This document shows, in pieces, positions 23,319-51,989 of a stretch of DNA of 53,826 nucleotides. Numbering within the stretch: the first letter of the stretch is position 1; each line of letters begins with the position of its first letter. Below the pieces are notes generated by a model, which searched no databases, was not told where the DNA came from, and worked only from the letters and a program-made list of their open reading frames with translations. The stretch is taken from the NCBI GenBank assembly GCA_030141605.1, contig JAQGDQ010001227.1:1-53826 (forward strand). Direction: 5' to 3'. The stretch comes from Tubiluchus corallicola (Eukaryota; Animalia; Priapulida). The position numbers and the translations under genes were made by a program.

Positions 23319-23479
23319 TCAGCCAACATTGATGCCTTCCATGCTTTTGAGCACTTGCTTAAACTTCTCAGCTGCGGAAAGCTCCTCCTCGCTGTTGTTC
23401 GTCGACCAGAATGATTCTTCCTCCACCAATTCTTGCATGGGAGCTTTTTTGTCTGGCCCAGACTTGAAACTATCTGTAG
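23319..23479 (-). CDS. Gene A putative terminal coding exon
   Basis: tttttgttag acceptor, phase 1. (A)TDSFKSGPDKKAPMQELVEEESFWSTNNSEEELSAAEKFKQVLKSMEGINVG*. The summed exon lengths stay in frame to this stop. Confidence 0.6.
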
Positions 23480-23700
23480 CTAACAAAAAACAGCTATAAT
23501 TATAAGGGTTCCTTAATGGTAGAGTTGTAATGATAGCCACGATAGTAACGGAGTGTCGGAAGGTCATTCATCAACTTAGTATGCATTGCAAAGGTTTTTA
23601 ATGAATCTTAGAAACAGATTAATGTCAAAAATTATGCAATTATCTAAGAAGCATAATTCATGTAAGTGAATTAATAAAAAAGAAAAAAATTGCAAAAATC

Positions 23701-24601
23701 TGATTATTACAAAAATTCATGCAAGGTCAGTTGATTATTACAAAAATTCATGCAAGGTCAGTTGATTATTACAAAAATTCATGCAAGGTCAGTTGATTAT
23801 TACAAAAATTCGTGCAAGGCCAGTTGATTATTACAAAAATTGATGCAAGGTCAGGTGATTTTTACAAAAATTCATGCAAGGTCAGATGATTTTTACAAAA
23901 ATTAATGCAAGGTCAGTTGATTATTACAAAAATTAATGCAAGGTCAGTTGATTATTACAAAAATTCGTGCAAGGTCAGTTGATTATTACAAAAATTCATG
24001 CAAGGTCAGTTGATTATTACAAAAATTCATGCAAGGTCAGTTGATTATTACAAAAATTCGTGCAAGGTCAGTTGATTATTACAAAAATTCGTGCAAGGTC
24101 AGTTGATTATTACAAAAATTCGTGCAAGGTCAGTTATTATTACAAAAATTCATGCAAGGTCAGTTGATTATTACGAAAATTCATGCAAGGTCAGTTGATT
24201 ATTACGAAAATTCATGCAAGGTCAGTTGATTATTACAAAAATTCGTGCAAGGTCAGTTGATTATTACAAAAATTCATGCAAGGTCAGTTGATTATTACAA
24301 AAATTCATGCAAGGTCAGTTGATTATTACAAAAATTCGTGCAAGGTCAGTTGATTAGTACAAAAATTCGTGCAAGGTCAGTTGATTATTACAAAAATTCG
24401 TGCAAGGTCAGTTATTATTACAAAAATTCATGCAAGGTCAGTTGATTATTACAAAAATTGATGCAAGGTCAGTTGATTACTACAAAAATTCGTGCAAGGT
24501 CAGTTGATTATTACAAAAATTCGTGCAAGGTCAGTTAATTATTACAAAAATTCGTGCAAGGTCAGTTGATTATTACAAAAATTCATGCAAGGTAAGTTGA
24601 T
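23701..24601. repeat. 31-bp minisatellite
   Basis: TGCAAGGTCAGTTGATTATTACAAAAATTCA units. Confidence 0.95.
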
Positions 24602-24603
24602 AA

Positions 24604-25005
24604 AAATTTCTATCAGTATCCATCCTCACAGTAGTTGCAAAACAGTGGTGTTAGCTTAATCAAGTTATCTTAATTTTACATACTATTAACAAACAATAGT
24701 CTTTCTATCTTTTATATCATCTCATACATGAGCTTCATTCATTACATCATTCCATTTTAAGCACTAATGTTTTTTTATCACACGATTCACTTTAAATTTT
24801 CAGATTATTTCCATTACTTTTTTTTCTATCACTGTGTGGGACAATCTAACAAACCCTGCTTTTTGATTGCCCGCAACACATTTACCTTTGTATATAGGTG
24901 AACAGTGTTTGAGGCTTTTCCTGTGCAGTATTTCTTATTTGTATTACGTTCATTGTAGGCCCTTTCACTAGATATTGTACATGTAAATGTGTAATGTGAA
25001 ATAAA
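24604..25005 (-). repeat. Dispersed repeat, inverted copy of 36060-36718
   Basis: Reverse-complement near-identity, except that the 31-bp array of the other copy is present here as a single unit. Confidence 0.85.
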
Positions 25006-25574
25006 TGACTTATCAAGGGTTGAATGGCCTTTTTTAACTGCAACTTTCTCGCGGAGAAACAAGAGTAAAAACTTGAGCTGTTAAAGTTCACTTACAGTCA
25101 CGGAACTTTATTTTCCTGAGCAAGGAATCAATTATTAAATTATTTAAATTCCAAGAACAAAAAGCTTAATCAGAATCTAATTCTTCACCTTATCACATTG
25201 AATAATACGCTGGTACCCAGTTTTTAAGCACGTGACAACTTGAAAACTGGGCACTGCGTGAGCGACAGTGCTTTTTCTACCTAGAAAGCAGCAACTTATC
25301 TCAGAGATGTGGGCACAGTCGCATGCGCACAACAGCCAACCGCCATGTTGCTTGGGATGTGTTGAAGTTTTATAGTTTCAAAAAGTACTTGAAAAGGACC
25401 ATTTTTGATTCATACTTTTTGAAAAGGACCATTTTGATTCATAGTCATAATACAATTTTTATGGTTCCATGTCTCATGCAGTCGCAATATATGGCCTCCA
25501 ATCAATTATAATGCTATTTTAATATACCTCTATGTAAATTAAACATACACTGTGGTCATTTCTTCTCCTCTTTT

Positions 25575-26112
25575 CCTTCTTCCTATCCCAAATCTTACTA
25601 TTTTTTCCATTCCATCATGTCTACTAACCCTAACCATTCTTTCATTCACTCATCCTCCCCTCCCTTCCTTCTTCCTATCCCTAATCTTACTATTTTCTCC
25701 ATTCCATCATGTCTACTAACCCTAACCATTCTTTCATTCACTCATCCTCCCCTCCCTTCCTTCTTCCTATCCCTAATCTTACTATTTTTTCCATTCCATC
25801 ATGTCTACTAACCCTAACCATTCTTTCATTCACTCATCCTCCCCTCCCTTCCTTCTTCCTATCCCTAATCTTACTATTTTTCCATTCCATCATGTCTACT
25901 AACCCTAACCATTCTTTCATTCACTCATCCTCCCCTCCCTTCCTTCTTCCTATCCCTAATCTTACTATTTTTTCCATTCCATCATGTCTACTAACCCTAA
26001 CCATTCTTTCATTCACTCATCCTCTCCTCCCTTCCTTCTTCCTATCCCTAATCTTACTATTTTTTCCATTCCATCATGTCTACTAACCCTAACCATTCTT
26101 TCATTCACTCAT
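25575..26112. repeat. 92-bp pyrimidine-rich tandem repeat
   Basis: About 6 units, each containing CTAACCCTAACC. Confidence 0.9.
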
Positions 26113-26339
26113 TTGTGCCACCTTAACAAGCCAAGCTTTCAAAGTGTCATACAGCAACTCTTTTATTTGGTTAATTTGACTTCATCAACGTTTTTTCTTA
26201 CCTATACTGTTTCTTTTTGTTTCAATAATATTGTATGTTAATGTATTGTATATGTATTGTTGGAGTGAAATAAATTGATTGATTGATTGGATGTGAAGCA
26301 AACAGTAGTACCCTAATGTGTTCTGGTTACATACAAGTA

Positions 26340-26683
26340 CAGTCGACCCTCGTTAAACCGGACCCCGTTAGCCCGGATATCGGATAAGACGGACGTCATC
26401 CGTGGTAAAGGAAACTGACCGATTTCCGTCCGAGCCGGAGCGCTAAACACAACACGGCCTGCCAACTGTACAATATTTTCTTTATCCTCACAGGTTAACT
26501 ATTTTAAAGTAACATACAGTATAGTATATAGTGCAATGTATATAGTGCAATGTATATAGGCCTTATTATGGTGATTATTCCTGTATAATATAGACCATAT
26601 ATAGGCATATCGGATAAATCGGACAATCGCTAAACCGGACCCCCCCCCCCCCCAAATTAGTCCGGTTTAACGAGGGTTGACTG
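26340..26683. mobile_element. pogo/Tigger-like MITE
   Basis: TA|CAGTCGACCCTCGTTAAACCGGAC...GTCCGGTTTAACGAGGGTTGACTG|TA. Confidence 0.8.
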
Positions 26684-26806
26684 TATAAAGAAAGACTCAT
26701 TATATTGAATATTATCAAGTGAAACTAGGAGGCGCTGCACTAGCCACCTGCTACACACAGCAGATACAACAGTTTTTCCTACATGTACAAAATTTGCTGT
26801 ACTCAC

Positions 26807-26830
26807 CAGATTGCCAATCGAAACTGCCAA
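26807..26830 (-). CDS. Gene A cytoplasmic microexon (24 nt)
   Basis: ttattttgcag|TTGGCAGTTTCGATTGGCAATCTG|gtgagt, phase 1-1, (V)GSFDWQS. Confidence 0.6.
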
Positions 26831-27023
26831 CTGCAAAATAAACAAACTTGTCAAATAAATAAACGAACAATCAAGCAAATGTATGAAGAAAATACACTAA
26901 CAGACAACGCATGTCAGATCCCCCCCACACTCAGGGCCGGCCTTAGGTAATTGGAGGCCCTAGGCGAAGTAAATTTGGTGGCCCCAAATGAAAAATAAAA
27001 AATAAATACGAAAAAAATAAAAT

Positions 27024-27068
<45 letters not shown>

Positions 27069-27074
27069 CTCCCT

Positions 27075-27170
<96 letters not shown>

Positions 27171-27180
27171 TCTCTCTCTT

Positions 27181-27212
<32 letters not shown>

Positions 27213-27277
27213 CTCTCAAGAATTCACCCCTATTCAATTAGATAAACAATACCTGCTTTGTCGTAAAATGATCTTAC

Positions 27278-27295
27278 CTGAGTGTTGCAACATAC
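27278..27295 (-). CDS. Gene A cytoplasmic microexon (18 nt)
   Basis: tatttttgcag|GTATGTTGCAACACTCAG|gtaaga, phase 1-1, (S)MLQHS. Confidence 0.55.
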
Positions 27296-27379
27296 CTGCA
27301 AAAATAAATATGCAGAAATTACTAATTATGTATTTACAAGGAAGTGAAATATGTAAAGAATTAACAGAACAGTTGGGAA

Positions 27380-27971
27380 GAAAGAGGTACAGTAAAAGTA
27401 TAGCTAGATGTCTGTAGAAAGAGGCACAGTAAAAGTATAGCTAGATGTCTGTAGAAAGAGGCACAGTAAAAGTATAGCTAGATGTCTGTAGAAAGAGGTA
27501 CAGTAAAAGTATAGCTAGATGTCTGTAGAAAGAGGTACAGTAAAAGTATAGCTAGATGTCTGTAGAAAGAGGTACAGTAAAAGTATAGCTAGATGTCTGT
27601 AGAAAGAGGTACAGTAAAAGTATAGCTAGATGTCTGTAGAAAGAGGTACAGTAAAAGTATAGCTAGATGTCTGTAGAAAGAGGTACAGTAAAAGTATAGC
27701 TAGATGTCTGTAGAAAGAGGTACAGTAAAAGTATAGCTAGATGTCTGTAGAAAGAGGTACAGTAAAAGTATAGCTAGATGTCTGTAGAAAGAGGTACAGT
27801 AAAAGTATAGCTAGATGTCTGTAGAAAGAGGTACAGTAAAAGTATAGCTAGATGTCTGTAGAAAGAGGTACAGTAAAAGTATAGCTAGATGTCTGTAGAA
27901 AGAGGTACAGTAAAAGTATAGCTAGATGTCTGTAGAAAGAGGTACAGTAAAAGTATAGCTAGATGTCTGTA
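27380..27971. repeat. 37-bp minisatellite
   Basis: AGTAAAAGTATAGCTAGATGTCTGTAGAAAGAGGTAC units. Confidence 0.95.
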
Positions 27972-28534
27972 ACTTATTTAATTTCTCACCAGAGTCAAAA
28001 ACATTTACTAGTTCACATTTCTTAGTGAAAAAGCACAACTACTTAGAAAGAGCTTAAAAAGTAATTACATATCATTATATTCTTCAGCTAATCTGGAACA
28101 ATATAACCTCTGCTATGCTACTGTACACCAGAGATCAAAAATTAACCCTTGCCCAACGGCAATGGAGTACAAAAGCATCATAACCATCTTTATTTAGTTA
28201 TATGATTACGCTACTAAATCGTCAATACCTGTTCTCGTCTGTGATTGAAAGGTTAGTCGTTGAATTTAAATGTCATTTCGCCTCTTAATGTCAATTATGA
28301 CTCAGCAGAGGCCTGTTTTCAAAAAGACCGATGATTTTCTGACAGAGACAAATGTAACAGAGTAAATGTTTAAGATTTTTGTAGTGTGGGTTGGTTGAGT
28401 TTGGAATTTACTATTAAAAAATGCGTTGTTCTAACAAATGGCAAATATTAAGCCTTTAAAGCTTAAGTAAAGTAACATAGGTTATTGCTTTATTAGACGA
28501 AAACCTGCCTTTAAACCATTGTGCTCTGACCATG

Positions 28535-29437
28535 TGTAACAATACCATAGATATGGTTTGTGTAGATCAAAGATCTTGCTGATTGCTGAGGAGTGCTCTG
28601 CATTCTAGAATGTCATGCTGTTCTGGTCTTCTTCGTTTCTAATTAGTTTAATAAATGCTACTTTATTATGCACGCATTTGTCTGGTTGCTAATATTATTG
28701 AAGATTACAAACTGCCAAAGAGACTCACGTACTGCGAGCTGAAAGAAGGGAAACGGTCAGTTGGAGGGCAACGGAAAAGATACAAAGACACCCTCAAAGC
28801 CAGCCTGAAAGAATGCAACATGAATGTCGACTCTTGGGAAGATGTGGCACAGGAGAGATCACGTTGGCGGTCCCTCGTCAAATCGGGAGTGACCGACTAT
28901 GAGTCCAGGCGCATCCAAGTGAGGCAGGAGAAAAGACAGCTTCGAAAAGACAGACAACGCAATGTCTATCAAGATACATCATTCTCATGTCCTCATTGCA
29001 GGAGGAGGTTCTCAGCAAGAATCGGGCTTATAAGCCACCTCCGTACCCATCATATGATGTCAGAATGAAGTCATGGTCCTCTTCGACTACGCAGGATGAA
29101 CAACAACAACAACAACAACAACAAATATTATTGTAGCGTGTAACATGGTGTCAGAAGTGAACTAGTTGTTTTGAGTATTTATTCGTACAGCAAATTTGTA
29201 GAGAACTATGAATCAGCTAAAACCACCTAACGCACTAAACTTCGAATCACGCAATCTGTCACAAGCATGGAAAAAATGTCGTGAAAAATTCAGCTTGTAT
29301 ATGGAACTTGCACTTAGTGACAAACTGAAGAAGTGAAAAAGAAGATCAGAACAGCAAGACAGTCTAGAATGCAGAGCACTCCTCAGCAATCAGCAAGATC
29401 TTTGATCTACACAAACCATATCTATGGTTTTGTTACA
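28535..29437 (+). mobile_element. Gypsy-like LTR retroelement relic with inverted LTR termini
   Basis: LTR TGTAACA...TAACA (28535-29145, interrupted). PBS TGGTGTCAGAAGTG at 29146-29159. gag-like MNQLKPPNALNFESRNLSQAWKKCREKFSLYMEL from 29208. Inverted LTR arm at 29339-29437. CCATG TSD. Confidence 0.75.
28701..29123 (+). mobile_element. 5'-truncated RTE-clade LINE
   Basis: LPKRLTYCELKEGKRSVGGQRKRYKDTLK...WEDVAQERSRWR...CPHCRRRFSARIGLISHLRTH is the RTE C-terminus with a C2H2 finger. (CAA)n tail. TSD AATATTATTG at 28691-28700 and 29124-29133. Confidence 0.9.
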
Positions 29438-29489
29438 CCATGTTCCTGGTAAACTTCATACAGCATACGGTAACACAGTAGAGTAGTCA

Positions 29490-29696
29490 TATACTACGTT
29501 AATACAGTAAAGTAATCAAATACTACATTACTACAGTAAAGTAGTCAAATACTACATTACTACAGTAAAGTAGTCAACTACTACATTACTACAGTAAAGT
29601 AATCAAATACTACATTACTACAGTAAAGTAGTCAAATACTACATTACTACAGTAAAGTAGTCAAATACTACATTACTACAGTAAAGTAGTCAAATA
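29490..29696. repeat. 30-bp minisatellite
   Basis: TACTACATTACTACAGTAAAGTAGTCAAA-type units. Confidence 0.9.
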
Positions 29697-29809
29697 TGTG
29701 ACATAGGTTTAGCTACCAAAGGAAGCGGTACATCACATCAACATTTCTTGTACATTTATGGAAGGGATGCTATTGCACTCCCTGTCGATATTAAACTGAT
29801 TACAAAAGG

Positions 29810-30558
29810 GCATCAGTGGACAAGGGTCAACAACAAGAATAACATGCATCAGGTGGAAAAGGGTCAACAACAAGAATAAAATGCATCCGGTGGACAAAGG
29901 TCAACAACAAAAACAACATGCATCAGGTGGACAAGGATCAATAACAACAATAACATGCATCCGGTGGACAAGGGTCAACAATATGCATCAGGTGGACAAG
30001 GGTCAACAACAAGAAAACATGCATCAGGTGGACAAGGGTCAACAACAAGAATAACATGCATCTAGTGGACAAGGGTCAACAACAAGAAAACATGCATCAG
30101 GTGGACAAAGGTCAACAACAAAAACAACATGCATCAGGTGGACAAGGGTCAATAACAACAATAACATGCATCCGGTGGACAAGGGTCAACAATATGCATC
30201 AGGTGGACAAGGGTCAACAACAAGAATAACATGCATCAGGTGGACAAAGGTCAACAACAAAAACAACATGCATCAGGTGGACAAGGGTCAATAACAACAA
30301 TAACATGCATCCGGTGGACAAGGGTCAACAATATGCATCAGGTGGACAAGGGTCAACAACAAGAATAACATGCATCAGGTGGACAAAGGTCAACAACAAA
30401 AACAACATGCATCAGGTGGACAAGGGTCAATAACAACAATAACATGCATCCGGTGGACAAGGGTCAACAATATGCATCAGGTGGACAAGGGTCAACAACA
30501 AGAATAACATGCATCTAGTGGACAAGGGTCAACAACAAGAATAACATGAATCCGGTGG
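29810..30558. repeat. ~37-bp minisatellite with higher-order periodicity
   Basis: CATGCATCAGGTGGACAAGGGTCAACAACAAGAATAA variants recur in a fixed order. The array ends a few nt from the TM-exon donor. Confidence 0.9.
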
Positions 30559-30565: not shown

Positions 30566-30682
30566 TTCTTTGCTTCTGCTGCCTCTTGTAAAGCACAAAG
30601 ACAAGAGCACAGATGATGACGATCGTTGACAAGATAGTGAACAGGCTCGGAAGGATTGCAGAAGACTCTGGATCAGTCTGTT
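30566..30682 (-). CDS. Gene A exon: transmembrane helix
   Basis: Not in the ORF track. tttaacag acceptor and A|gtatgt donor, 117 nt, phase 1-1. EQTDPESSAILPSLFTILSTIVIICALVFVLYKRQQKQR is a hydrophobic stretch followed by a basic stop-transfer. Confidence 0.85.
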
Positions 30683-33427: not shown

Positions 33428-33883
33428 CGGTAGTTATTTTTGTTAGAGTTGTCGTTATCGATGATTGGGTGCCTGTACTGCCACCTTCACTACTGCCAAT
33501 AGTGGTAAACTGCAGCACATGTACTTTCACTGTATATGGTACAAACGCGTCTTTGTTCTTAGCAGAGAACACGTAAGTGCCCTCGTCTTCGACACTGACT
33601 CTGGGAATTTCCAACTCGGTGGTGTAGCAAAGAGGCGTGTCCTTGTGATTTCTAACAATAGCGGATATCTTCTCGTGAAATGCACTCACTTCTGGGTCAT
33701 CCTCAGTAGGCGGTGAGAGGTTGATGATGCTGCCTCCCGGTAACTTCCACCCAGCGGTTTGCCAGACGGGCTTGCAGCAGAAGTGGAGATAAATTTTAAT
33801 GAGGTCACCAATGCCACCTTTACCTTTGAAGGTTTCCCGTGTTTCCAGTTCTGTCACGTTTGTATTGACAAAGTGAGGCTCAC
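33428..33883 (-). CDS. Gene A exon: Ig-like domain D2 plus Ser/Thr-rich stalk
   Basis: gtcgcag acceptor and G|gtatgt donor, 456 nt, phase 1-1. CEPHF...LHFCCKPVWQTAGWKLP...LCYTTELEIPRVSVEDEGTYVFSAKN...VKVHV, followed by TTIGSSEGGSTGTQSSITTTLTKITT. Confidence 0.88.
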
Positions 33884-35690: not shown

Positions 35691-36017
35691 ACAGAAGGTT
35701 AACAGTGAGATTAGCGATGACACCATAAATGGACTCAGCCTCAATGGTGTAGTTAGTGAGATCATACGGCCTCACATTGTGGATTTTAGCGTTCACGTCA
35801 AAGGCTGTGTAAGAGGTGTCGCCATCCGATGTTAGTGTAAGCAGGAGATTTTCTTCTTGCAAGACATGCTCTCTGTACTTGATGTCTCTTCGACTACCGT
35901 GATAAATCAAGCTGACTCTATGGTAAGTACCGAGCTGCAAGTTGTACACCTTCAGGTGAAATACACCCGTCGTGAATAAATTAACCCAGATAGTTTCACT
36001 GCCGGTTACATTGATGT
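35691..36017 (-). CDS. Gene A exon: Ig-like domain D1
   Basis: tgttacag acceptor and T|gtaaga donor, 327 nt, phase 1-1. ...ETIWVNLFT...AKIHNVRPYDLTNYTIEAESIYG..NLTVNLL has the Ig E-F-G motif I.NV...D...Y. Confidence 0.8.
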
Positions 36018-37737: not shown

Positions 37738-39289
37738 TGTTCACACTCACCTTGTGTTCACGCTCACCTTGCGTTCACGCTCGCCTTGCGTTCACGCTCG
37801 CCTTGCGTTCACGCTCGCCTTGCGTTCACGCTCGCCTTGTGTTCACGCTCACCTTGCGTTCACGCTCGCCTTGCGTTCACGCTCGCCTTGCGTTCACGCT
37901 CGCCTTGCGTTTACACTCGCCTTGTGTTCACGCTCGCCTTGCGTTCACGCTCGCCTTGCGTTCACGCTCGCCTTGCGTTCACGCTCGCCTTGTTCACGCT
38001 CGCCTTGCGTTCACGCTCGCCTTGCGTTCACGCTCGCCTTGCGTTCATCGCCTGCTCTTGCGTTCACGCTCGCCTTGCGTTCACGCTCGCCTTGCGTTCA
38101 CGCTCGCCTTGCGTTCACGCTCGCCTTGCGTTCACGCTCGCCTTGCGTTCACGCTCGCCTTGCGTTCACGCTCGCCTTGCGTTCACGCTCGCCTTGCGTT
38201 CACGCTCGCCTTGCGTTCACGCTCGCCTTGCGTTCACGCTCGCCTTGCGTTCACGCTCGCCTTGCGTTCACGCTCGCCTTGTGTTCACGCTCACCTTGTG
38301 TTCACGCTCACCTTGTGTTCACGCTCACCTTGTGTTCACGCTCACCTTGTGTTCACGCTCACCTTGTGTTCACGCTCACCTTGTGTTCACACTCACCTTG
38401 TGTTCACACTCACCTTGTGTTCACACTCACCTTGCGTTCGCACTCACCTTGCGTTCGCACTCACCTTGCGTTCGCACTCACCTTGCGTTCGCACTCACCT
38501 TGCGGTCGCACTCACCTTGCGTTCGCACTCACCTTGCGTTCGCACTCACCTTGCGTTCGCACTCACCTTGCGTTCGCACTCACCTTGCGTTCGCACTCAC
38601 CTTGCGTTCGCACTCACCTTGCGTTCGCACTCACCTTGCGTTCGCACTCACCTTGCGTTCGCACTCACCTTGTGTTCGCACTCACCTTGTGTTCGCACTC
38701 ACTCACCTTGCGGTCACACTCACCTTGTGTTCACACTCACCTTGTGTTCACACTCACCTTGTGTTCACACTCACCTTGTGTTCACACTCACCTTGCGTTC
38801 ACACTCACCTTGCGTTCACACTCACCTTGCGGTCACACTCACCTTGCGTTCACACTCACCTTGTGTTCACACTCACATTGCGTTCACACTCACCTTGTGT
38901 TCACACTCACCTTGTGTTCACACTCACATTGCGTTCACACTCACATTGCGTTCACACTCACCTTGCGTTCACACTCACCTTGTGTTCACACTCACATTGC
39001 GTTCACACTCACCTTGTGTTCACACTCACCTTGTGTTCACACTCACCTTGTGTTCACACTCACCTTGTGTTCACACTCACCTTGCGTTCACACTCACATT
39101 GCGTTCACACTCACCTTGCGTTCACACTCACCTTGTGTTCACACTCACCTTGTGTTCACACTCACCTTGTGTTCACACTCACATTGTGTTCACACTCACC
39201 TTGTGTTCACACTCACCTTGTGTTCACATTCACCTTGTGTTCATACTCACCTTGTGTTCACACTCACATTGTGTTCACACTCACCTTGT
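37738..39289. repeat. 17-bp minisatellite whose minus strand is a 5' splice site
   Basis: GTTCACACTCACCTTGT reads ACAAG|GTGAGTGTGAAC on the minus strand. Confidence 0.95.
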
Positions 39290-39504
39290 CGTTTAAATGT
39301 AACCGGACGACGGAGAGCAACTTTCATACCCTCGCTATTCGGTGTGCCAACGCTAACGGCTGCCGTGTACGTTTTATTTTGCTCTACATTACTCTGGAAG
39401 CAGCAAGACTGGACATTCATCCTTTCACATGTTTTCATCCATCCAGTTCTGGCAACTTCCCGGATATACGCACGAAATACTACGTCATCAGTCGACTTCC
39501 TCGC
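39285..39504 (-). CDS. Gene A exon: fibronectin type III domain, C-part
   Basis: ccttctag acceptor and G|gtgagt donor, 220 nt, phase 0-1. ARKSTDDVVFRAYIREVARTGWMKTCERMNVQSCCFQSNVEQNKTYTAAVSVGTPNSEG...KRQ contains a Tyr-corner-like NKTYTAAV. Confidence 0.7.
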
Positions 39505-42532: not shown

Positions 42533-43408
42533 ACTACTTTTTGAAAAGTACACTACCATGGTGAAACTACTTTTTGAAAAGTACATTACTTTGGTGAAAC
42601 TACTTTTGAAAAGTACACTACCTTGGTAAAACTACTTTTTGAAAAGTACATCACCTTGGTGAAACTACTTTTTGAAAAGTACACTACCTTGGTGAAACTA
42701 CTTTTTGAAAAGTACACTACCTTGGTGAAACTACTTTTTGAAAAGTACACTACCTTGGTGAAACTACACTACCTTGGTGAAACTACTTTTTGAAAAGTAC
42801 ACTACCTTGGTGAAATTACTTTTTGAAAAGTACACTACCTTGGTGAAACTACTTTTTGAAAAGTACACTACCTTGGTGAAACTACACTACATTGGTGAAA
42901 CTACTTTTTGAAAAGTACACTACCTTGGTGAAACTACTTTTTGAAAAGTACACTACCTTGGTGAAACTACACTACCTTGGTGAAACTACTTTTTGAAAAG
43001 TACACTACCTTGGTGAAACTACTTTTTGAAAAGTACACTACCTTGGTGAAACTACTTTTTGAAAAGTACACTACCTTGGTGAAACTACACTACCTTGGTG
43101 AAACTACTTTTTGAAAAGTACATTACCTTGCTGAAACTACTTTTTGAAAAGTACATTACCTTGGTGAAACTACTTTTTGAAAAGTACACTACCTTGGTGA
43201 AACTACACTACCTTGGTGAAACTACTTTTTGAAAAGTACACTACCTTGGTGAAACTACTTTTTGAAAAGTACATTACCTTGGTGAAACTACTTTTTGAAA
43301 AGTACACTACCTTGCTGAAACTACTTTTTGAAAAGTACATTACCTTGGTGAAACTACTTTTTGAAAAGTACACTACCTTGGTGAAACTACTTTTTGAAAA
43401 GTACCTTG
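42533..43408. repeat. 33-bp minisatellite (with 20-bp deletion variants) abutting an exon donor
   Basis: GAAACTACTTTTTGAAAAGTACACTACCTTGGT units. Confidence 0.95.
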
Positions 43409-43409
43409 C

Positions 43410-43495
43410 CTTGTAGTGAGCCTCCTTCCACGTAATAGTAAAGTAATCGGTTGATTGAGACTGGACGACTGGTTTTTCTATTAAATAAGGAAAAG
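43410..43495 (-). CDS. Gene A exon: fibronectin type III domain, N-part
   Basis: Long polypyrimidine tract plus tttcag acceptor. SFPYLIEKPVVQSQSTDYFTITWKEAHYK has the FN3 P..V..S...I.W pattern. The donor is AAG|gcaagg (phase 0) or AG|gtactt 5 nt further. Confidence 0.7.
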
Positions 43496-43802
43496 CTGAA
43501 AGAAATACAGAAACAGAAAAAAGCTAAACAATCTTCTAAAGCAATAAGGAAAGTCTCTCGGAAACTTGAATTATGAATTTATTCCACAACAACTCAAACA
43601 TACATACAAATTTATACTACATTGAAAAAAATAAACTATGAGAGTTACTGTGAGAAGGAGGAAGGAACATTGAGCTTTCGAGTCCTCCTCCAGATAAGTG
43701 AAACAATTGACAATTAACGTTACATTTTCATCAGTTATAACGTGCATTAGAACAAAATAAGTTTTGCTAGTAACTTAAGATCAGGATGAGTAAAATTGTG
43801 AG

Positions 43803-43970
43803 TTAATTATACCGTTGTAGTAGGTAATTCTTTGATGCTTTTTTAAATTGATAAATATTAAGAGTTTTCATTTCACATGGAATTGATGACCATATTTTAA
43901 TAGCATTATATTTTGATGACTGTTTCATTATATTCGTTTTTGGAAGAGGGAGTACATAGTTTCTTTTTTT
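43803..43970 (-). mobile_element. CR1/L2-group LINE ORF2 3' fragment
   Basis: RNYVLPLPKTNIMKQSSKYNAIKIWSSIPCEMKTLNIYQFKKASKNYLL is a typical C-terminal motif. Confidence 0.7.
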
Positions 43971-44152
43971 AGGTACAAAAGTTTGCGCGTTATACTCGAA
44001 TAAATACGATATTTTATAATTCAATTTTTTTCGTTTTAAAAGACTTTAGCTGTTCTAAAGAAACGCATGAACATTTTACTTTACAAGACATTTTGTAGAA
44101 TTAGTTTTTTAAATGCATTGGCCTCTAGCCTAGGCTTTATCGCTCCTTAATT

Positions 44153-44634
44153 CAGGGGTGTGCAAATTGCGGCCCGACGAGAGAATTTGTGCGGCCCACG
44201 AAGAGATTTGCCAACCTAATGAAAGTGCAGCCCGGGTGATTAATTGAGTGTATCCAGCTGAAGTCCGTGCCACGATCCCAAAGATAGTGCGGTTAGTGTT
44301 TTCTACTAGATCGGATGTCATAAACCCTTACAAGATGGTTGTAGCTTAATGTCACTGTACTACACAGACTGTGTGATACACATTACTAATTTGCATTGTA
44401 ATGAAATTACCACTATCTGTAACAAAAGTAGAAATATATGGTTTGTAATATACATTTTAACAACTTCTAAAATAATTTCTTGAGTGTAGTAGTAATGATG
44501 TACGCAGGTCGGATGCAAAAAAATCGTTATTAGGCCTTTCTGTACTTGGCTCCTTGATCAAACTGCCTGTGGCACACAGCAATTGCGGGAAAGTTTAATG
44601 TGGCCCGGCTAGTCAGATAATTTGCACAACCCTG
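44153..44634. mobile_element. hAT MITE, same family as 728-1227
   Basis: High identity to 728-1227. TSD CCTTAATT/GCTTAATT. Confidence 0.8.
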
Positions 44635-44704
44635 GCTTAATTCAATAATCAGTAATGACCCAGGAATATATAACAAAACTCAAGACTCAGTCAAATGCAC
44701 TTAC

Positions 44705-44911
44705 ACGTGTTTCGTATATACATGTTGTAATAATCTGTTCCTCCACAGGTGGCGTAGTTGTGCCTGCCGGTAAACGATCCTGCACAAGCCGTGTTGCAGT
44801 GATGAGACGGAACGGGCCGGACTATTGAAATGAATGTTACATTGTTGAAGACGTTTTTTTCTGCGCACAAACATGTTCTGTAATCAGTCAAAGCTGCCAT
44901 CGAATATCTGT
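44705..44911 (-). CDS. Gene A exon: WSC domain 3, C-half
   Basis: atattttag acceptor and T|gtaagt donor, 207 nt, phase 1-1. DRYSMAALTDYRTCLCA...HCNTACAG...TCGGTDYYNMY completes the WSC begun in the previous exon. Confidence 0.8.
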
Positions 44912-44954
44912 CTAAAATATAAGGAAATATTTATTAATAAAATGATAAAACAAA

Positions 44955-45404
44955 GTCTGATCACCGAAGTTAAGCAGCATAGAGCCTGGTTAGTGCTTGG
45001 ATGGGTGACCGCCTAGCAATACCAGGTGCTGTAGGCTTGAGGGACGCCCACACTGTATCTCTACACTAGGTGGAGGAGCTGTACAAGCAGCCAACGGCTA
45101 GAGGGGCAGCTTCCAAATGTGTAGAGGAGTAAACCTTCCAAATCAGGAGTGGAGCCCCGAAGGCGGACCAGTGCAGCATGCTCACTGACTCCAGCAGCTC
45201 CTGCAGCCAACCTGGTGCCAAACGTGTCGCTCCGCTTTCTTTTGGACTTCACCAGCGAGGAAGAGAGGGGGTTCCTGCAGTTTGGGCAACTCAGGATCTC
45301 CATACACCTTGCCCAGGCAGGCGTCCTGGAGACGTTCAAGGATCGGACTCTCTTGGCGCACATTCCATTGTCTTCCGAGACAGAAGGATGCCAACAGTTA
45401 TGTA
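44955..45404 (+). mobile_element. 5S rRNA-derived SINE (SINE3-like), 5'-truncated
   Basis: 44955-45038 matches the 3' two-thirds of 5S rRNA (..GAAGTTAAGCAG..GCCTGGTTAGTGCTTGGATGGGTGACCGCC..ACCAGGTGCTGTAGGCTT), followed by a GC-rich body. TSD ATAAAACAAA at 44945-44954 and 45405-45414. Confidence 0.75.
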
Positions 45405-45512
45405 ATAAAACAAACTTCATGTAATATATCAGCTCATATGCAAAAGAAAAATACTTACTCAAGCTATAAATAATTAATAAGGACATTATATTACTTCTTA
45501 CCAATACAAATA

Positions 45513-45938
45513 CACTCGTATCTCGGTTTACCGTACGTCGCTTTTACGGATATCAAAAAAATCGGACAAAATCTGTTTCGTTAAAGCATTCCGCATACTA
45601 CTGACATAGTCCATTGTTTCGCGAGCTGACCGCTAGTTGGCGGGCCGTCACCTTGTTTACATCGAAACAGCATATAACGACACGTGTGTAGCTTGTCTGT
45701 CAGCGTCTGTAAGCGGTTTCAAGTCAATTATGCAGAGTTGTTTGAGTCAATTGCCGACAGTTTTTATATACTTTTGCATAGGAGCGGGTCGTACTAGACG
45801 TTTTTGAGACATTTAGGCGACTGATTTTACGTTACAGTGAGTCTAATACACAGCACCTACTACATTAGCTTACCATCGAAAAATATGGACGATCGGCAAA
45901 TTCGGACCGCTTTTGTCCGGCAAACCGAGATATGAGTG
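45513..45938. mobile_element. pogo-like MITE
   Basis: CACTCGTATCTCGGTTT...AAACCGAGATATGAGTG inverted termini. Confidence 0.65.
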
Positions 45939-47072
45939 TTGGCTAACTAGGGTGTAGTCCAGGATGCCAGATTCCAGCAACACAGCATTAAAAAAAATCT
46001 TCGACAACTCCACTGTCAAAATTTTTTATGCCAAATTACTAGCCTAGAAATGGACTTTTGCTAATAATGCGACAACACTTTATGAATCACAATCATGGTG
46101 ACTATTATGTCTATAAAATGGCAATAATTTAAGTCTTCTAAATAACATTGTGTAGGATAAAAAATATATGACAAAAAATGTGAAACCATGTGGCTAATGA
46201 GTTTATTTACTGATATACAAAAGTAAATAGGATTGTAAACTTGTCAAGTAAAAGATCAGATGATAAAATCAATGCGGGAAATCTTTACTGTCAATACAAC
46301 CTAATCTATACATCCCGACAAACATTTTAGCCTAAATTTTTACACGAATAACCACACATTTACATAATTTTACTTGATGTGCAAACAGAAAAACTAATCA
46401 AAATTGCTCATCATCATTAATCACAAAATTTTTATAAATGTTAGAAAATAGCATAAAAAACTGGGTTACAAATGCTGGTAACTTTAAACTGTGGTCAGTA
46501 GTTAATTCCATGCTCTGATTAAAATAAGAGACGTTGTATTTTACAAAATTCAAAAATTCAAATACAAAAATCAAAATGCAAAATAAGAAATAGAAAATTT
46601 CATTTACCGGTTGTTAAAAAATGTCTGTTGAAGCCATATTGCAATATTTCATAATTTGTATCCCACTTCTGACACCAGTGTAACGGATCCGGGTTCCAGC
46701 GTGGATCCGTCTCAGGATGTATAGAGTGGCATACAAGTTATGAAATACTTCACAGCAGACGAGAAAAGTAAAAAGAATACGAATGTAAAATAAACTTTAA
46801 TGCACAACCAGTAGCTCCATGACATGTCAACAAACTTTGCCATAAAAATCAGCAAGCCTACAGCATTCACCTTTACAGACAGAAAGGCCAGGTTGGAATG
46901 TCAAATTAGGCATGCATTCTGTTTTATACAGGTACATTTGCATTACTGGGCTTCTCGACCATACCCATTACTAACATTAGGGGGTTGGTCATAATCTGCC
47001 TTCGTAACAATATGTTTAAACTAAAATACAAAACAGAACGAAAGCATACAAAATTGCAGAAAGTTTGCTTAC

Positions 47073-47204
47073 CATGCTGTAAAAAGCAGTAAAATGAACA
47101 CATTCTTGGGGACATGCTCAATAGTTGAAGTTTCGATGAGTCATTTAGGAACTTATCAAAATTGGCAGCCCAAAAACAGCCTTTATGCTGGCCAATAATA
47201 GGTA
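47073..47204 (-). CDS. Gene A exon: WSC domain 3, N-half
   Basis: tttttcag acceptor and G|gtaagc donor, 132 nt, phase 1-1. PIIGQHKGCFW...SMSPRMCSFYCFLQH. Confidence 0.8.
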
Positions 47205-47315
47205 CTGAAAAAAATGCAAGCAAAATAGATTATTGCAAACGTTTCTGCTCGAATGTCAGATGAAATATTTCATTGAAAATGTGACTGAGGGGGGTAGTGT
47301 AAATAAAGTCTTGAA

Positions 47316-47739
47316 CCCTTTCAGTCCCAAATTACTTTTTTAATAAGAAAAATTTTTTTGGTTGGTACTTTTGTTCAGTATGTCCATCTTGTTTACATAT
47401 AATAATTATTTTTCTACCTGTGCCCGCGTGCTAAATATAGCCTGTATCCCACGGGATACATTGGGATTCAATGGAAGCATAAAATGTGCTTCATTTTGCA
47501 ACTGCTGATAATTTTTTAAAGTATTTAAGACATTTAGTATGCATGCTATGCTAATCTGTACAAAGTCGTCTCTAAAGTACTGTACCTTGCGCAGTTTTTT
47601 ATGTTAGTAGATTTTCTAGTTTGCCATTTTATCACCATTTTAGTCTATTGTTATTGGCTTAAATCAAAATAACTATTTTATTAATTTTAAAGGCAGAAAA
47701 TGTTCTCGTATCCCACGGAATATAGCGGGTATGAAAGGG
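47316..47739. mobile_element. piggyBac-like MITE
   Basis: (TGAA)CCCTTTCA...TGAAAGGG(TTAA). Confidence 0.55.
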
Positions 47740-48127
47740 TTAAGCTCTTTTGTCATGACTTTTCTCATCCTGTACAGTTGGCCAGAGTTTATCAGCTCTC
47801 GCTGTTTCCCAGGTTTTCAAAAATATTAATGTGAAATATTTATCGCGTCGCTGTATCGAGGGTTGTTACCTAATCTAAAGTATTTTTGCACATGCGTAGT
47901 ACGTACAGTAATGTACAGATTTGATGAATTTTGCATAAGAAATCACTAAATGTATAAAAATATATTAAAAATATTAATTTTAACATTGAAAGACTATTAT
48001 GAATCATAAAGAATTACCATTTACAATAAATAGTGTATTTATTCAGCGGATGAATACACACCAAAAAAATGTAGTTACTTGCGCCCGCTTGAGATGGTAC
48101 TTGCCGACGTGAGACTGTACACAACAC

Positions 48128-48436
48128 ACCTGTGACTTTTTTACCTGTGACTCTTTTACCTGTGACCTTTTATCTGTGACTTTTCTTAACTGTAACTCGT
48201 TTACCTGTTATTTTTTACTTGTGACTTTTTTACCTGTTATTTTTTTACCTGTGGCTTTCTTACCTGTGACTTTATTAGTGACTTTTTTACCTGTGACTGT
48301 TTTAAGTGACTGTTTTACCTGCGGCTTTTTTATCTGTCACTTTTTCTGACTTTTTTACCTGTGACTGTTTTACCTGTGGCTTTTTTACATGTGGCTTTGT
48401 TACCTGTGGCTTTCTTACCTGTGACTTTTTTACTTG
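48128..48436. repeat. Degenerate ~15-bp repeat (TTTTACCTGTGAC)
   Basis: Direct reading. Confidence 0.8.
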
Positions 48437-48484
48437 AATTCATTGTTATCAAGGTATGACATATTCAAAAACCCATGTATTTAC

Positions 48485-48874
48485 TTGTAGAAGGATGAAC
48501 TTGCATAGCATTCTGCCCGCCGCACGTTTGGCACTGTGTCTCATCGACAAACCATCCATCACTGCGTTCATTCAAGCGCTTGTACTCGCAAGTCTTGTAG
48601 TAGCGAGTACACATCCGATTGCAAGAGTTATTCGCTGGACCGCCACTTCCGTATTTATAATGACAAGAGCATTCGATTCCGACCCTATTGCTCGTCAGGC
48701 CCACGTACGGGTAGCTCCGGTTTCCACAGAAATGTTTGCAATCGTTTAACACTTGAGAACCACTGCCGTAGTGGCGCCACGCGACGTAGGAGGTATCGTC
48801 CAGCGGATCGACGAGAATCTTGTCTCCTTCTGATACCTCCCAGCATCCCAAATTGTCTGACTGCACATCAAAAT
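48485..48874 (-). CDS. Gene A exon: WSC domain 2
   Basis: ctctttcag acceptor and A|gtaaat donor, 390 nt, phase 1-1. NLGCW...DCKHFCGNRSYPYVGL...ECSCH...SCNRMC...QTCGGQNAMQVH. Confidence 0.85.
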
Positions 48875-50032
48875 CTGAAAGAGAAGAAACACTAGATGAG
48901 AGAAGAAACGCTAGACTCTTTATGAAAACCAATATAAAATTGGTCTTTGAAATGCGATAACCAAAGAGGTTATGCTAGGTGCGAGCACATGTCTTTAAGT
49001 TGTACTGAAGTATATCGCTAAGCAGCGGCTGACCAGCAAGTGGCACCTGGCATTTGTTAGTAGATGTAGTTTGTACTAGAGAGAAAAGAATTATATAAGA
49101 AATGAGAAAAGGGAGAGTTAGGTGGGTCAGTAAGAACAGGACAGCGATAAAAAACAGTTTGGAGAAAGAGGCTCATTGGAGTATGTTTTAGATATTATAG
49201 TTTTAGTTTTTCTAGAGGTGATTATGTTCTTATTTTTGCAGGATTGTAATTAATAATTATAAAATAGTTTGTGTTAATGGAGAGAAATTTTGTATACATA
49301 TAGTTATATATATATAGTTAATATTTTGCAATGATTATGTTACAAAAGGAGTAAGGAGAACACAAAGACAAATACAATTACAGGTTTTTGGAGTCCTCAA
49401 GAGGAACTGGAGAGTCGAATTTCGGCTGCTACTCCTGTACAACACACAAGAGCCTCCTGTACAACACACTTCAAGAATGATATTGAGTAATGCAAATACG
49501 TTAGGTTTAGATAACACAGAGTAAAATTTGAAAAACTAACCACGGCATTCGTAGCGCACACGTTACTAACTAAGTAAAATAATAAATTATTGTATCTTGT
49601 CAATAAGGTTAAAATTATGTTTTTTGATTAGTGAGTGGTGCACCCTGGAGGTGAGTCAGCGACATTTTGCCCATTTGATGAAAACATTTTCAATAATTAA
49701 TAATTTTCTTTTCTAGATGCCTAAATCTTTCAAGCAGGTAAGTGAAATGCTCAGTAATATAGATTTGCATGGAGTTTTTTTAGACATAGCATAACATTTC
49801 CTTTTCTTCCCCTGATGTAGAAGTTGGAATTGTACATTTTAATTAGGTGCTGCCATCTATGAGCTAATTCTGTTACATTCTACCAGCCAACTTACCCCCA
49901 GTATAAATGTTTGGTCCAGTGAATGCATATTCACTGGTTCTCTCCCTATTTTAAAGTAATGGTTGTTGTGAAGCCTGAGCGTCTGCATAGGTCACCTATA
50001 CCTATATATACTGACTGGTTTTACTTTCTAGT

Positions 50033-50422
50033 CACTCTCTCACTCTCACTCTCAGTGTTCAGTGCAGGAGACTCACACTGTCACTCTCAGTGTTCAGTGC
50101 AGGAGCCTCTCTCACTCTCAGTGTTCAGTGCAGGAGACTCTCACACTCTCACTCTCAGTGTTCAGTGCAGGAGACTCTCACACTCTCACTCTCAGTGTTC
50201 AGTACAGGAGCCTCTCTCACTCTCAGTGTTCAGTGCAGGAGCCTCTCTCACTCTCAGTGTTCAGTGCAGGAGACTCTCACTCTCAGTGTTCAGTGCAGGA
50301 GACTCTCACACTCTCACTCTCAGTGTTCAGTACAGGAGACTCTCACTCTCAGTGTTCAGTACAGGAGACTCTCACTCTCAGTGTTCAGTGCAGGAGACTC
50401 TCACTCTCAGTGTTCAGTGCAG
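50033..50422. repeat. Tandem repeat (CTCTCACTCTCAGTGTTCAGTGCAGGAGA)
   Basis: Direct reading. Confidence 0.9.
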
Positions 50423-51180
50423 CAGTCGTGCTGCTCATGTGTCTGTAGTTTTAATAAACACTTTTCTGTTTTGTTCAGTGCAAATATGTATTATAGATTT
50501 TTTATTCTTGTTCATACTTCTGTGCCTAAACTCAATCATAACAAAGTGAGTGATCTACAACTTCAAACATGACTTTCACACATGATTTACGTTGTGCGTA
50601 TATGATGCCATGTGATGGTGCGGTCAGAATAGTATTGCGACAGATTTAAAATTAAGACAAACAAAATATCATCTCATCAATGCGAGTGAAATACATAGAT
50701 ATAATTGCTATAAAGTGATATCATTTTTTAAGCCAATTTTTCTGAAGCCTCTTTTATCTACCCTTAGATGGTGCGTCTTTTATCTACCCTTTTCTTTGTC
50801 CTTTAACATATTTCAATTTTGTTCATCGCCGATCGTGCAGCTAAATTCATGAAACTCATTATAAATAGCTGTGCACAAATTAGAACTGGGAAAATTTGTT
50901 AACTAAACGAAGCAGTATTGGGTTCGTTACTTTTTGAAAAGTAATCTGTTGTGACTGCTAATTACTTTATAAAAACTGTAATCAAATTACTTATTACTGA
51001 TTACTTTTAGCAAAGGTAATCCTTTATTGATCACTCATTACTTCTGTGAGGCTTCAGTGAAAAGTGTGCAGCTATCTGAAAAGTTCAGTGAAATCAGAGC
51101 ATGCCTAAATCTATCTGAGGCTAAATCTAATCTGTCTTAACCATATTAACTTAACAGGCTAACAAGGCTATAGTCTAGGC

Positions 51181-51478
51181 CAGGGGGGTGCAAATTATCT
51201 GACTAGCCGGGCCACATTAAACTTTCCCACCATTCCTGCGGGCCACAGGCAGTTTGGTCAGCCAAGTACAGAAAGGCCTAATAACGATTTTTTTTGCATT
51301 CGACCTGAGTACATCATTACTACTATACTCAAGAAACTATTTTAGAAGTTATTAAAATTTATATTACAAACCATATATTTCTACTTTCAGGACAGATAGT
51401 GGTAATTTCATGACAATGCATATTAGTAATGTGTATCACACAGTCTGTGTAGTACAGTGACATTAAGCTGCAACCAAG
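51181..51478 (-). mobile_element. Truncated inverted copy of the same hAT MITE
   Basis: Reverse complement of ~927-1227. Confidence 0.75.
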
Positions 51479-51683
51479 TGGGGATACTTCCCCGGGGCCT
51501 CCCGCCAAGGTAACATGTTTTTGCTTTATGCGAACATACTGCCTCCTCTCTCCCTCTCTCTCTCTTGACAGGTGAAATAGGCGGTGCGTGTTACTATGCA
51601 ACACTGTGAACAATGTAACACAAAGGAATACGAATATTTAAACAATAACTATAGATTAACACTGCTTGTGCAAGAAAACTTAC

Positions 51684-51989
51684 TTTCAGTATAATACACA
51701 GCAGCTGCCATATGAACTCCACCACACATCTCGGCTAAACCACCGCTAACCGACGGACACGGCCTGCAGTTGGAAGAAAAGTTGAAAAATGGATATTCGT
51801 TGCCGCACTGACATCTGTCCGTAACGGACGTATTATACAAGCTGGCAAAAACGGCAGAAGCAAAGTAGAACCCTTTCTTACGGCATTCAGTTCTGCATTG
51901 TAATGGAATTGAAAGAGAAGCGTCGACATAGAAGGGTTTGGGCACTTCTACAAGCCAAAAACATCCCTGATAGAACCAGATGTCTGATG
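51684..51989 (-). CDS. Gene A exon: WSC domain 1 (first in-window exon)
   Basis: ttattacag acceptor and A|gtaagt donor, 306 nt, phase 1-1. Translation SDIWFYQGCFW...QCRTECRKKGFYFA...CQCGN...CRPCP...MCGG...AVYYTE fits the 8-Cys WSC pattern (YxGC..C..C..CxCG..C..C..CGG..VY). Confidence 0.85.

What the first reader, a model, noticed from the sequence alone, without database searches (positions are those of the whole stretch)
23319..51989. Hidden receptor with an unusual WSC x3 - FN3 - Ig x2 - TM architecture
Seen: 12 exons, several missing from the ORF track, splice in frame on the minus strand. They give three WSC domains, an FN3 domain, two Ig-like domains, a Ser/Thr stalk, a TM helix and a short acidic tail. 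Established: WSC is a Cys-rich putative carbohydrate-binding module (yeast Wsc1, Kremen, polycystin-1, xylosyltransferase). Invertebrate recognition receptors often fuse Ig domains with glycan-binding domains (amphioxus VCBP: V + chitin-binding; snail FREPs: Ig + fibrinogen). Inference: this may be an undescribed lectin-Ig chimeric pattern-recognition or adhesion receptor. I do not recognise this domain combination from any named protein.
Basis: partly seen in the sequence, partly recalled or inferred. Interest (0 to 1): 0.85.

Follow-up and report, generated by a model that had tools for sequence, protein, structure and literature searches.

The report
WSC-tipped immunoglobulin surface receptor gene
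Twelve exons of an unidentified animal splice cleanly on paper into a predicted cell-surface protein with three WSC (putative sugar-binding) modules mounted on a fibronectin and two unusual immunoglobulin domains, beside a sister gene that has only the immunoglobulin stalk; it likely works as a non-signalling capture or adhesion receptor, but no RNA or binding data confirm this yet.

Summary
Observation confirmed at sequence level. Twelve minus-strand exons (51989 to 23319; ten GT-AG introns, one GC-AG) join into one open 811-residue frame: WSC x3, FN3 (split over two exons), two atypical Ig domains, Ser/Thr stalk, one membrane helix, 73-residue tail. The 5' end (start codon, signal peptide, possibly more domains) lies outside the window, so the architecture is a minimum. 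No RNA confirms the junctions. The membrane-proximal Ig lacks both canonical cysteines and keeps a different invariant pair, shared with two unnamed public proteins that carry other N-terminal parts. No WSC+FN3+Ig protein or paper was found, but the protein searches were driven by the Ig domain only. The design (lectin-like module + FN3 + Ig + TM in a tandem cluster) is known from Biomphalaria with a C-type lectin. The tail has no ITAM/ITIM. Verdict: real, probably lineage-specific exon-shuffled receptor, a new variant of a known kind; pattern recognition untested. The scan had not noted this architecture elsewhere.

The parts
51684..51989 (-). Gene 1 exon 1 (first in view, internal phase 1-1): WSC domain 1
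   Evidence: Pfam WSC E 0.00095, below gathering score; 7PZ2 Wsc1 E 0.33
48485..48874 (-). Gene 1 exon 2: WSC domain 2, with an insertion and two extra cysteines
   Evidence: 8-Cys/CGG pattern; Atlas best cluster 0.93, WSC on 17% of members; no Pfam hit
47073..47204 (-). Gene 1 exon 3: N-terminal half of WSC domain 3
44705..44911 (-). Gene 1 exon 4: C-terminal half of WSC domain 3
   Evidence: (Pfam WSC E 0.023)
43410..43495 (-). Gene 1 exon 5: N-terminal part of FN3, ends at a GC donor (phase 1 to 0)
39285..39504 (-). Gene 1 exon 6: C-terminal part of FN3 (phase 0 to 1)
   Evidence: exons 5+6: 14.2 bits, 0 of 500 shuffles
35691..36017 (-). Gene 1 exon 7: atypical Ig-like domain 1 (no canonical cysteines)
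   Evidence: 8.5 bits, 0 of 500 shuffles, max 7.4; E 7e-6 to P0015 domain 1
33428..33883 (-). Gene 1 exon 8: atypical Ig domain 2 plus start of the Ser/Thr stalk
   Evidence: (I-set E 0.006)
30566..30682 (-). Gene 1 exon 9: end of stalk, transmembrane helix, basic juxtamembrane stretch
   Evidence: hydropathy up to 2.77 over 19 residues
27278..27295 (-). Gene 1 exon 10: 18-nt micro-exon (tentative)
26807..26830 (-). Gene 1 exon 11: 24-nt micro-exon (tentative)
23319..23473 (-). Gene 1 exon 12: last coding exon, tail and stop
18486..18558 (-). Gene 2 candidate first exon, signal-peptide-like, phase-1 donor (tentative)
15963..16277 (-). Gene 2 Ig-like domain 1 exon
   Evidence: (E 0.005 to exon 7)
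13769..14122 (-). Gene 2 Ig domain 2 exon
   Evidence: 32% identity to exon 8, E 2e-11
12875..12985 (-). Gene 2 transmembrane exon
11841..11873 (-). Gene 2 micro-exon (tentative)
11022..11057 (-). Gene 2 micro-exon (tentative; the acceptor at 11054 would create a stop, 11057 does not)
5951..6471 (-). Gene 2 candidate last exon, four 120-bp repeats (tentative)

Best explanation
These exons likely form one gene, missing its 5' end here, for a predicted single-pass surface protein whose three WSC modules would sit at the tip of an FN3-Ig-Ig rod and likely grip glycosylated surfaces (other cells, matrix or microbes), working as a capture or adhesion receptor that would not signal by itself. Shown: the exons, their open splice, the domain calls, the membrane helix, the absence of ITAM/ITIM motifs and a downstream paralogue with the same Ig-Ig-TM core. 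Inferred: one transcript; that the WSC x3 + FN3 head was added to an older Ig-Ig-TM stalk by phase-1 exon shuffling; that three WSC modules bind with avidity; that the 37-residue Ser/Thr stalk is O-glycosylated and extends the rod; that the membrane-proximal Ig is closed by a non-canonical disulfide between neighbouring strands; that any signal would pass through a partner chain.
For: Open 811-residue splice with sound splice sites. WSC3 and FN3 are each split across two exons and only make sense when joined. No signal-peptide-like phase-1 exon in any of the 11 introns, while one lies between gene 1 and gene 2. All domain borders fall on phase-1 introns. The paralogue models as signal-Ig-Ig-TM-tail, 480 residues, no internal stop; core 67 of 226 identical, 0 of 1000 shuffles. 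Two unnamed public proteins share the odd membrane-proximal Ig plus TM but have different N-terminal parts (P0015, P0071). Tail: 1 tyrosine (juxtamembrane), no ITIM, ITAM, YxxL-type or dileucine motif. Fungal WSC domains bind beta-glucan (SiWsc3, as stated in PMC9024836); in Kremen the tail can be replaced by a GPI anchor (PMC5014086).
Against: Ten of 11 junctions are phase 1, so any such exons would splice in frame. The signal-exon scan also gives chance hits (3 loci on the plus strand, 6 on the minus strand), so its silence in the introns is modest evidence. The WSC domains score below Pfam's gathering threshold and WSC2 has no Pfam hit; no residue-level test of glycan binding was possible. 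In animals the one structurally studied WSC that I read about (Kremen1) binds a protein, DKK1. Exon 4 reads only 4 codons past its donor to a stop and an AATAAA lies at 43583, so a WSC-only form is possible. The unseen 5' part could add domains that change the reading.
Confidence: 0.45

Rival explanations
1. It is a dedicated pattern-recognition receptor for microbial beta-glucan or similar, in a diversifying immune cluster like the Biomphalaria C-type lectin/FN3/Ig transmembrane genes.
For: Same design and tandem setting as BSUD.12903 and neighbours (PMC10875847 section 15); paralogues only about 30% identical; no close relative among 146, 7993 and 7933 word-sharing candidates, which fits fast evolution; fungal WSC lectins bind beta-glucan.
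Against: No polymorphism, expression or induction data; only two family members in view; no signalling motif in the gene 1 tail; a lack of close relatives also follows from a poorly sampled lineage.
Confidence: 0.2
2. It is a Kremen-like co-receptor whose WSC domains bind a protein ligand rather than sugar.
For: Kremen1 is a type I protein whose Kringle and WSC domains bind DKK1 and whose tail is dispensable for Wnt antagonism (PMC5014086 passages); tail length is similar (73 here, 60-75 there).
Against: No Kringle or CUB domain in view; three tandem WSC modules suit a repetitive ligand better (inference).
Confidence: 0.15
3. The exons are not one fixed transcript: either a secreted WSC gene lies upstream of an FN3-Ig-Ig-TM gene, or the WSC-FN3 head splices to either of the two Ig-Ig-TM-tail cassettes.
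For: Phase-1 borders allow either join; stop 4 codons past the exon 4 donor and AATAAA at 43583; gene 2's signal exon is only a candidate.
Against: Intron 4 is only 1208 bp, largely a dispersed repeat, with no signal-like exon; gene 2 has its own signal-like phase-1 exon with the best donor score of the nine loci found.
Confidence: 0.15
4. It is a Wsc1-like mechanosensor (WSC tip, Ser/Thr spring, membrane helix) sensing strain in cuticle or matrix.
For: Same outline as yeast Wsc1 (PMC9024836); the stalk is 18 of 37 Ser/Thr.
Against: The stalk is only 37 residues and is separated from the WSC domains by FN3-Ig-Ig; no tail similarity to fungal sensors was tested.
Confidence: 0.05

Closest known systems
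Biomphalaria clustered single-pass C-type lectin/FN3/Ig receptors (BSUD.12903 and neighbours; PTC-linked; PMC10875847 section 15 read)
   Same: Single-pass proteins in tandem clusters that combine a lectin-type module with FN3 and Ig domains; neighbours with Ig only; candidate recognition receptors.
   Different: C-type lectin there, WSC x3 here; sequence homology not tested; hyperdiversity shown there, untested here.
Kremen1/2 (Kringle-WSC-CUB-TM; PMC5014086 passages)
   Same: Type I membrane protein with a WSC domain, a linker and a short tail without a catalytic domain.
   Different: One WSC between Kringle and CUB; no FN3 or Ig; here three WSC over FN3-Ig-Ig.
Hydractinia Alr family (10.1101/2022.03.04.482883, passages)
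   Same: Tandem family of single-pass proteins with I-set domains that lack the canonical disulfide and carry new intra-sheet disulfides, plus an FN3-like domain; exon shuffling.
   Different: Alr order is V-Ig, I-Ig, then FN3-like next to the membrane; here FN3 is distal to the Ig pair; Alr has no WSC in the passages read and many tails have ITAM/ITIM; cysteine positions differ (A-B strands there, predicted B-E here).
FREP/CREP/GREP (VIgLs; criteria in PMC10875847 passages) and amphioxus VCBP (recalled)
   Same: Ig domains fused to a glycan-binding type of module.
   Different: VIgLs are secreted with Ig first and lectin last; this gene is membrane-anchored with the lectin-like modules distal.
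Yeast Wsc1 and fungal WSC lectins (PMC9024836 passages)
   Same: Eight-cysteine WSC fold with CGG motif; Ser/Thr stalk and membrane helix.
   Different: Single WSC, no FN3 or Ig; fungal.
Unnamed public proteins P0015 (274 aa) and P0071 (466 aa), Logan singletons
   Same: Same atypical membrane-proximal Ig (invariant F-C, P, W and second C) followed by a membrane helix.
   Different: No WSC or FN3; P0071 has two canonical Ig domains in front; P0015 may be incomplete at its start.

Membership tests
WSC domain (PF01822) | Eight conserved cysteines and the CGG motif (PMC9024836) | tested here: met
   All three repeats show the pattern; WSC2 has two extra cysteines
WSC domain (PF01822) | Pfam gathering score 27.8 bits | tested here: not met
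   19.8 bits (exon 1), 15.3 bits (exon 4, half domain), no hit for exon 2 or 3; WSC3 could only be scanned in halves
WSC domain (PF01822) | PAN/Apple-like fold | tested here: inconclusive
   Single-sequence model of exon 2 failed (pLDDT 33)
WSC lectins | Binding to beta-glucan or another glycan | not testable with these tools
   Needs a glycan array
Immunoglobulin superfamily | Ig beta-sandwich fold | tested here: met
   Exon 8 model pLDDT 82; VIA Z 12.2, rmsd 2.1, 98 aligned to DIP-alpha Ig3; KIT D4 Z 11.5. Exon 7 not folded; profile score only
Immunoglobulin superfamily | Canonical B-F strand disulfide | tested here: not met
   Canonical positions hold Leu and Phe in exon 8 by alignment to titin; invariant cysteines are C35 and C85 of the exon. 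Disulfide-less I-set domains are known, so this does not exclude the superfamily
Fibronectin type III | Match to an FN3 profile | tested here: met
   14.2 bits, 0 of 500 shuffles, profile built from 237 FN3 repeats of fetched proteins; Pfam missed both halves scanned apart
Kremen | Kringle-WSC-CUB triplet | tested here: not met
   No CUB after the WSC domains; no Kringle in view, though the 5' end is missing
FREP/CREP/GREP (VIgL) | [quoted passage not shown] | tested here: not met
   Membrane helix present, order reversed, none of those lectin domains
Hydractinia Alr | V-set/I-set Ig then membrane-proximal FN3-like domain with six invariant cysteines | tested here: not met
   Domain order differs; direct sequence comparison with Alr proteins not made
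ITAM/ITIM immunoreceptors | ITAM or ITIM consensus in the tail | tested here: not met
   None in either gene's modelled tail
Biomphalaria PTC-type hyperdiverse receptors | Excess non-synonymous diversity in the ectodomain | not testable with these tools
   No second haplotype or genome held

The most novel reading that the evidence does not exclude
The locus is part of an undescribed invertebrate family built on one atypical Ig-Ig-TM stalk with swappable tips, in which this member uses tandem WSC domains as a microbial-glycan sensor: a WSC-based immunoglobulin-superfamily pattern-recognition receptor, possibly with the WSC-FN3 head spliced to either of two neighbouring stalk-and-tail cassettes.
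Probability: 0.15. Interest if true: 0.62.

Novelty: new variant of a known kind. Interest (0 to 1): 0.36.

Why it matters
If expressed as modelled, it adds WSC to the modules (C-type lectin, fibrinogen, galectin, chitin-binding) that invertebrates have joined to Ig domains, and gives a direct test of whether animal WSC domains bind glycans at all, which is shown for fungal ones but, in the papers I read, not for animal ones. The head-bearing and head-less paralogues side by side are a clean case of exon shuffling on an atypical Ig stalk. New mosaic architectures of this kind are frequent in invertebrate genomes, so without function the specialist surprise is moderate.

Tried and rejected
No whole genome is held, so the 5' end and further paralogues could not be sought. 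RNA: no RNA holder was listed for exon 8; one small same-label run (X1) laid on 43405-48120 covered only dispersed-repeat pieces (5 records) and on 22540-23700 nothing; this is no evidence on expression. Word-based protein searches: exon 8 alone, 0 of 146 candidates; profile with full-length P0015/P0071, 3 generic Ig proteins of 7993; Ig2-only profile, 2 of 7933, both seeds. All three and the HMMER job used the Ig2 domain; no search was run with a WSC or FN3 query against the large collections, so the architecture census is incomplete. Of the 78 HMMER hits, 76 are partial generic Ig matches; I scanned 13 of 78 with Pfam (no WSC) and all 81 fetched proteins with my WSC pattern (0). Single-sequence fold of WSC2 failed. 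The Atlas look-up of exon 7 gave no result. Atlas hits of P0015 to basigin/neuroplastin (0.95) were taken as generic two-Ig-TM likeness, not orthology; not tested further. The shared 7-residue tail motif of genes 1 and 2 is not significant (354 of 5000 shuffles). The four 120-bp repeats in gene 2's last exon show 17 non-synonymous and 3 synonymous differences, no sign of coding constraint. A hydrophobic ORF at 20304-20173 was rejected as gene 2's first exon because its donor is phase 0. Paper searches for the architecture returned no description of a WSC+FN3+Ig protein in the listings or passages seen; supplements were not read and may hold domain tables that do.
Full report
Setting. The window is AT-rich animal DNA (36% GC) dense in micro- and minisatellites (86 Tandem Repeats Finder rows) and ends in a 23-bp satellite from 52021 to 53826. 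No whole genome is held. The organism was not identified; earlier scan notes on the same genome call it an invertebrate that is likely not an arthropod (unchecked).

Check of the observation. From six-frame translation of the repeat-masked window and a splice-site scan I rebuilt 12 minus-strand exons: 51989-51684, 48874-48485, 47204-47073, 44911-44705, 43495-43410, 39504-39285, 36017-35691, 33883-33428, 30682-30566, 27295-27278, 26830-26807, 23473-23319. All acceptors are AG, ten donors GT and one GC. They join into 811 residues with one stop, at the end. Exon GC is 0.457 against 0.368 in the unmasked region. The first exon begins at a phase-1 acceptor, so the start codon and signal peptide, and perhaps further domains, lie beyond the satellite.

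Domains. Residues 8-90, 111-221 and 240-333 each match an eight-cysteine/CGG pattern; 0 of 20,000 shuffles match once (the pattern was written after seeing the sequence). These are the features that PMC9024836 (passages) gives for WSC. Pfam WSC hits exon 1 (E 0.00095, 19.8 bits) and exon 4 (E 0.023), both under the 27.8 cut-off, and misses exons 2 and 3. Exon 1's best PDB match is yeast Wsc1, 7PZ2 (E 0.33, cysteines in register). Exon 2's best Atlas cluster (0.93) has WSC on 17% of members; its single-sequence fold failed. The three repeats are only about 30% identical. Exons 5+6 score 14.2 bits against an FN3 profile built from 237 repeats of fetched proteins, above all 500 shuffles (max 5.8). 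Against an Ig profile exon 7 scores 8.5 (0 of 500, max 7.4) and exon 8 24.7. Exon 8 folds as an Ig sandwich (pLDDT 82); best matches are KIT D4, neuroplastin, DIP-alpha Ig3 and TCR V domains, all near Z 11-12 and so not a family call. A 37-residue stalk is 18 Ser/Thr; one hydrophobic helix follows; the 73-residue tail has one juxtamembrane tyrosine, 12 acidic and 10 basic residues, and no ITAM, ITIM, YxxL-type or dileucine motif.

One gene or several. Ten of 11 junctions are phase 1, so the open frame is not proof by itself. For one gene: WSC3 and FN3 are each completed only by joining two exons, and a scan for signal-peptide-like phase-1 exons found none in the 11 introns. Against: that scan gives chance hits (3 loci on the plus strand, 6 on the minus); exon 4 reaches a stop 4 codons past its donor and an AATAAA lies at 43583. 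The micro-exons are moderately supported: at the loosest threshold the plus strand gives 3 chance loci, and the minus strand gives 4 loci, two after each of the two membrane exons. RNA could not decide the matter: no RNA holder was listed and the one small run offered covered no exon in the two stretches laid. I put one transcript at about 0.8.

Downstream on the same strand lies a paralogue: candidate signal exon 18558-18486, Ig exons 16277-15963 and 14122-13769, membrane exon 12985-12875, two micro-exons and a last exon 6471-5951; the model is 480 residues with no internal stop. Its second Ig is 32% identical to exon 8 (E 2e-11); the Ig-Ig cores share 67 of 226 residues, 0 of 1000 shuffles. 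No WSC or FN3 exon was found between the genes. So a head-bearing and a head-less member of one family sit in tandem. Gene 2's last exon is tentative.

Relatives. A profile of the two Ig2 exons against 1.84 billion representatives gave 78 hits at E up to 0.001; only 2 of 78 (P0015, P0071) align across the domain. Both are unnamed singletons with the same Ig directly before a membrane helix; P0071 has two canonical Ig domains in front, P0015 a domain related to exon 7 (E 7e-6). In the four-way alignment C35 and C85 of the domain are invariant; they end and begin strands that are neighbours in the Ig fold (and textbook topology), while the canonical cysteine positions hold Leu and Phe (alignment to titin). 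A non-canonical intra-sheet disulfide is thus inferred, and both window genes also keep a second cysteine pair at the Ig1-Ig2 junction. None of the 81 fetched proteins has the WSC pattern. Three word-based searches found no closer or WSC-bearing relative. All these searches used the Ig domain; none used WSC, so absence of the architecture elsewhere is weakly tested.

How it likely works. The protein would be a type I membrane protein holding three WSC modules away from the cell on an FN3-Ig-Ig rod and an O-glycosylated stalk. Tandem modules would bind a repetitive glycan or glycoprotein with avidity. With no tyrosine motif or catalytic domain in the tail it would tether or capture, leaving any signal to a partner. 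The phase-1 domain borders and the head-less neighbour suggest the head was added by exon shuffling. The ligand is not shown: fungal WSC lectins bind beta-glucan (as stated in PMC9024836), but Kremen1's WSC binds the protein DKK1 (PMC5014086 passages). Rivals: dedicated microbial pattern receptor (0.2), protein-ligand co-receptor (0.15), split or alternative transcripts (0.15), Wsc1-like mechanosensor (0.05).

Comparison with what is known. It works most like the Biomphalaria clustered single-pass proteins that combine C-type lectin, FN3 and Ig domains next to Ig-only neighbours (PMC10875847, passages and section 15), with WSC in place of the lectin; homology was not tested. It is not a FREP/CREP/GREP (secreted, reverse order), not Kremen (no Kringle or CUB in view) and not Alr (FN3 on the other side of the Ig domains), although Alr shows the same habit of disulfide-less I-set domains with new intra-sheet bonds (10.1101/2022.03.04.482883, passages). 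WSC is among the five commonest partners of SRCR domains in sea urchin (PMC10855680, passages), so it is a mobile module in invertebrates. Seven paper searches aimed at the architecture showed no description of a WSC+FN3+Ig receptor in the listings or in the passages read (PMC3927609, PMC8242945); subscription papers, supplements and InterPro/CDART were not seen. VCBP is recalled, not checked. The scan's own notes hold no look-alike.

Verdict. A real, intact-looking, 5'-truncated gene with the stated domain order, in a two-member tandem family on an atypical Ig stalk. New variant of a known kind; interest 0.36; 0.62 if it proves to be a WSC-based pattern receptor with swappable parts (probability 0.15).

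Noticed in passing
window 5951-18558, minus strand: Paralogous gene, modelled as signal peptide-Ig-Ig-TM-tail (480 residues), without WSC or FN3; tail of four 40-residue acidic repeats each with a tyrosine, no ITAM/ITIM.
   Followed up: yes
window 1-555 and 6060-6617: Exact duplicate (0 mismatches in the 472 bases compared) of gene 2's candidate last exon and its acceptor at the window edge: a very recent duplication giving a second last exon, or an assembly artefact.
   Followed up: partly
window 8205-8243, minus strand: Possible third phase-1 micro-exon of gene 2 with a tyrosine motif of the YxN/YxxI type; weak donor.
   Followed up: no
window 43410, minus strand: GC-AG intron splitting the FN3 domain, directly followed by a 33-bp-unit minisatellite (42533-43404).
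   Followed up: partly
window 28655-29065, plus strand: 137-codon ORF that looks like the C-terminal end of an RTE-type LINE (recalled likeness, not tested).
   Followed up: no
window 760-1228, 44167-44635, 51175-51476: Dispersed repeat of about 470 bp in three copies (91-94% identity); other dispersed repeats at 24603-25013/36051-36718, 2839-3125/40343-40669, 30801-31121/47798-48100.
   Followed up: no
window 52021-53826: 23-bp satellite running to the end of the window; it cuts off the 5' end of gene 1.
   Followed up: partly
proteins P0015 and P0071: Unnamed single-pass proteins with the same atypical membrane-proximal Ig domain (invariant non-canonical cysteine pair) but different N-terminal parts; no Pfam family describes this Ig subtype.
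   Followed up: partly
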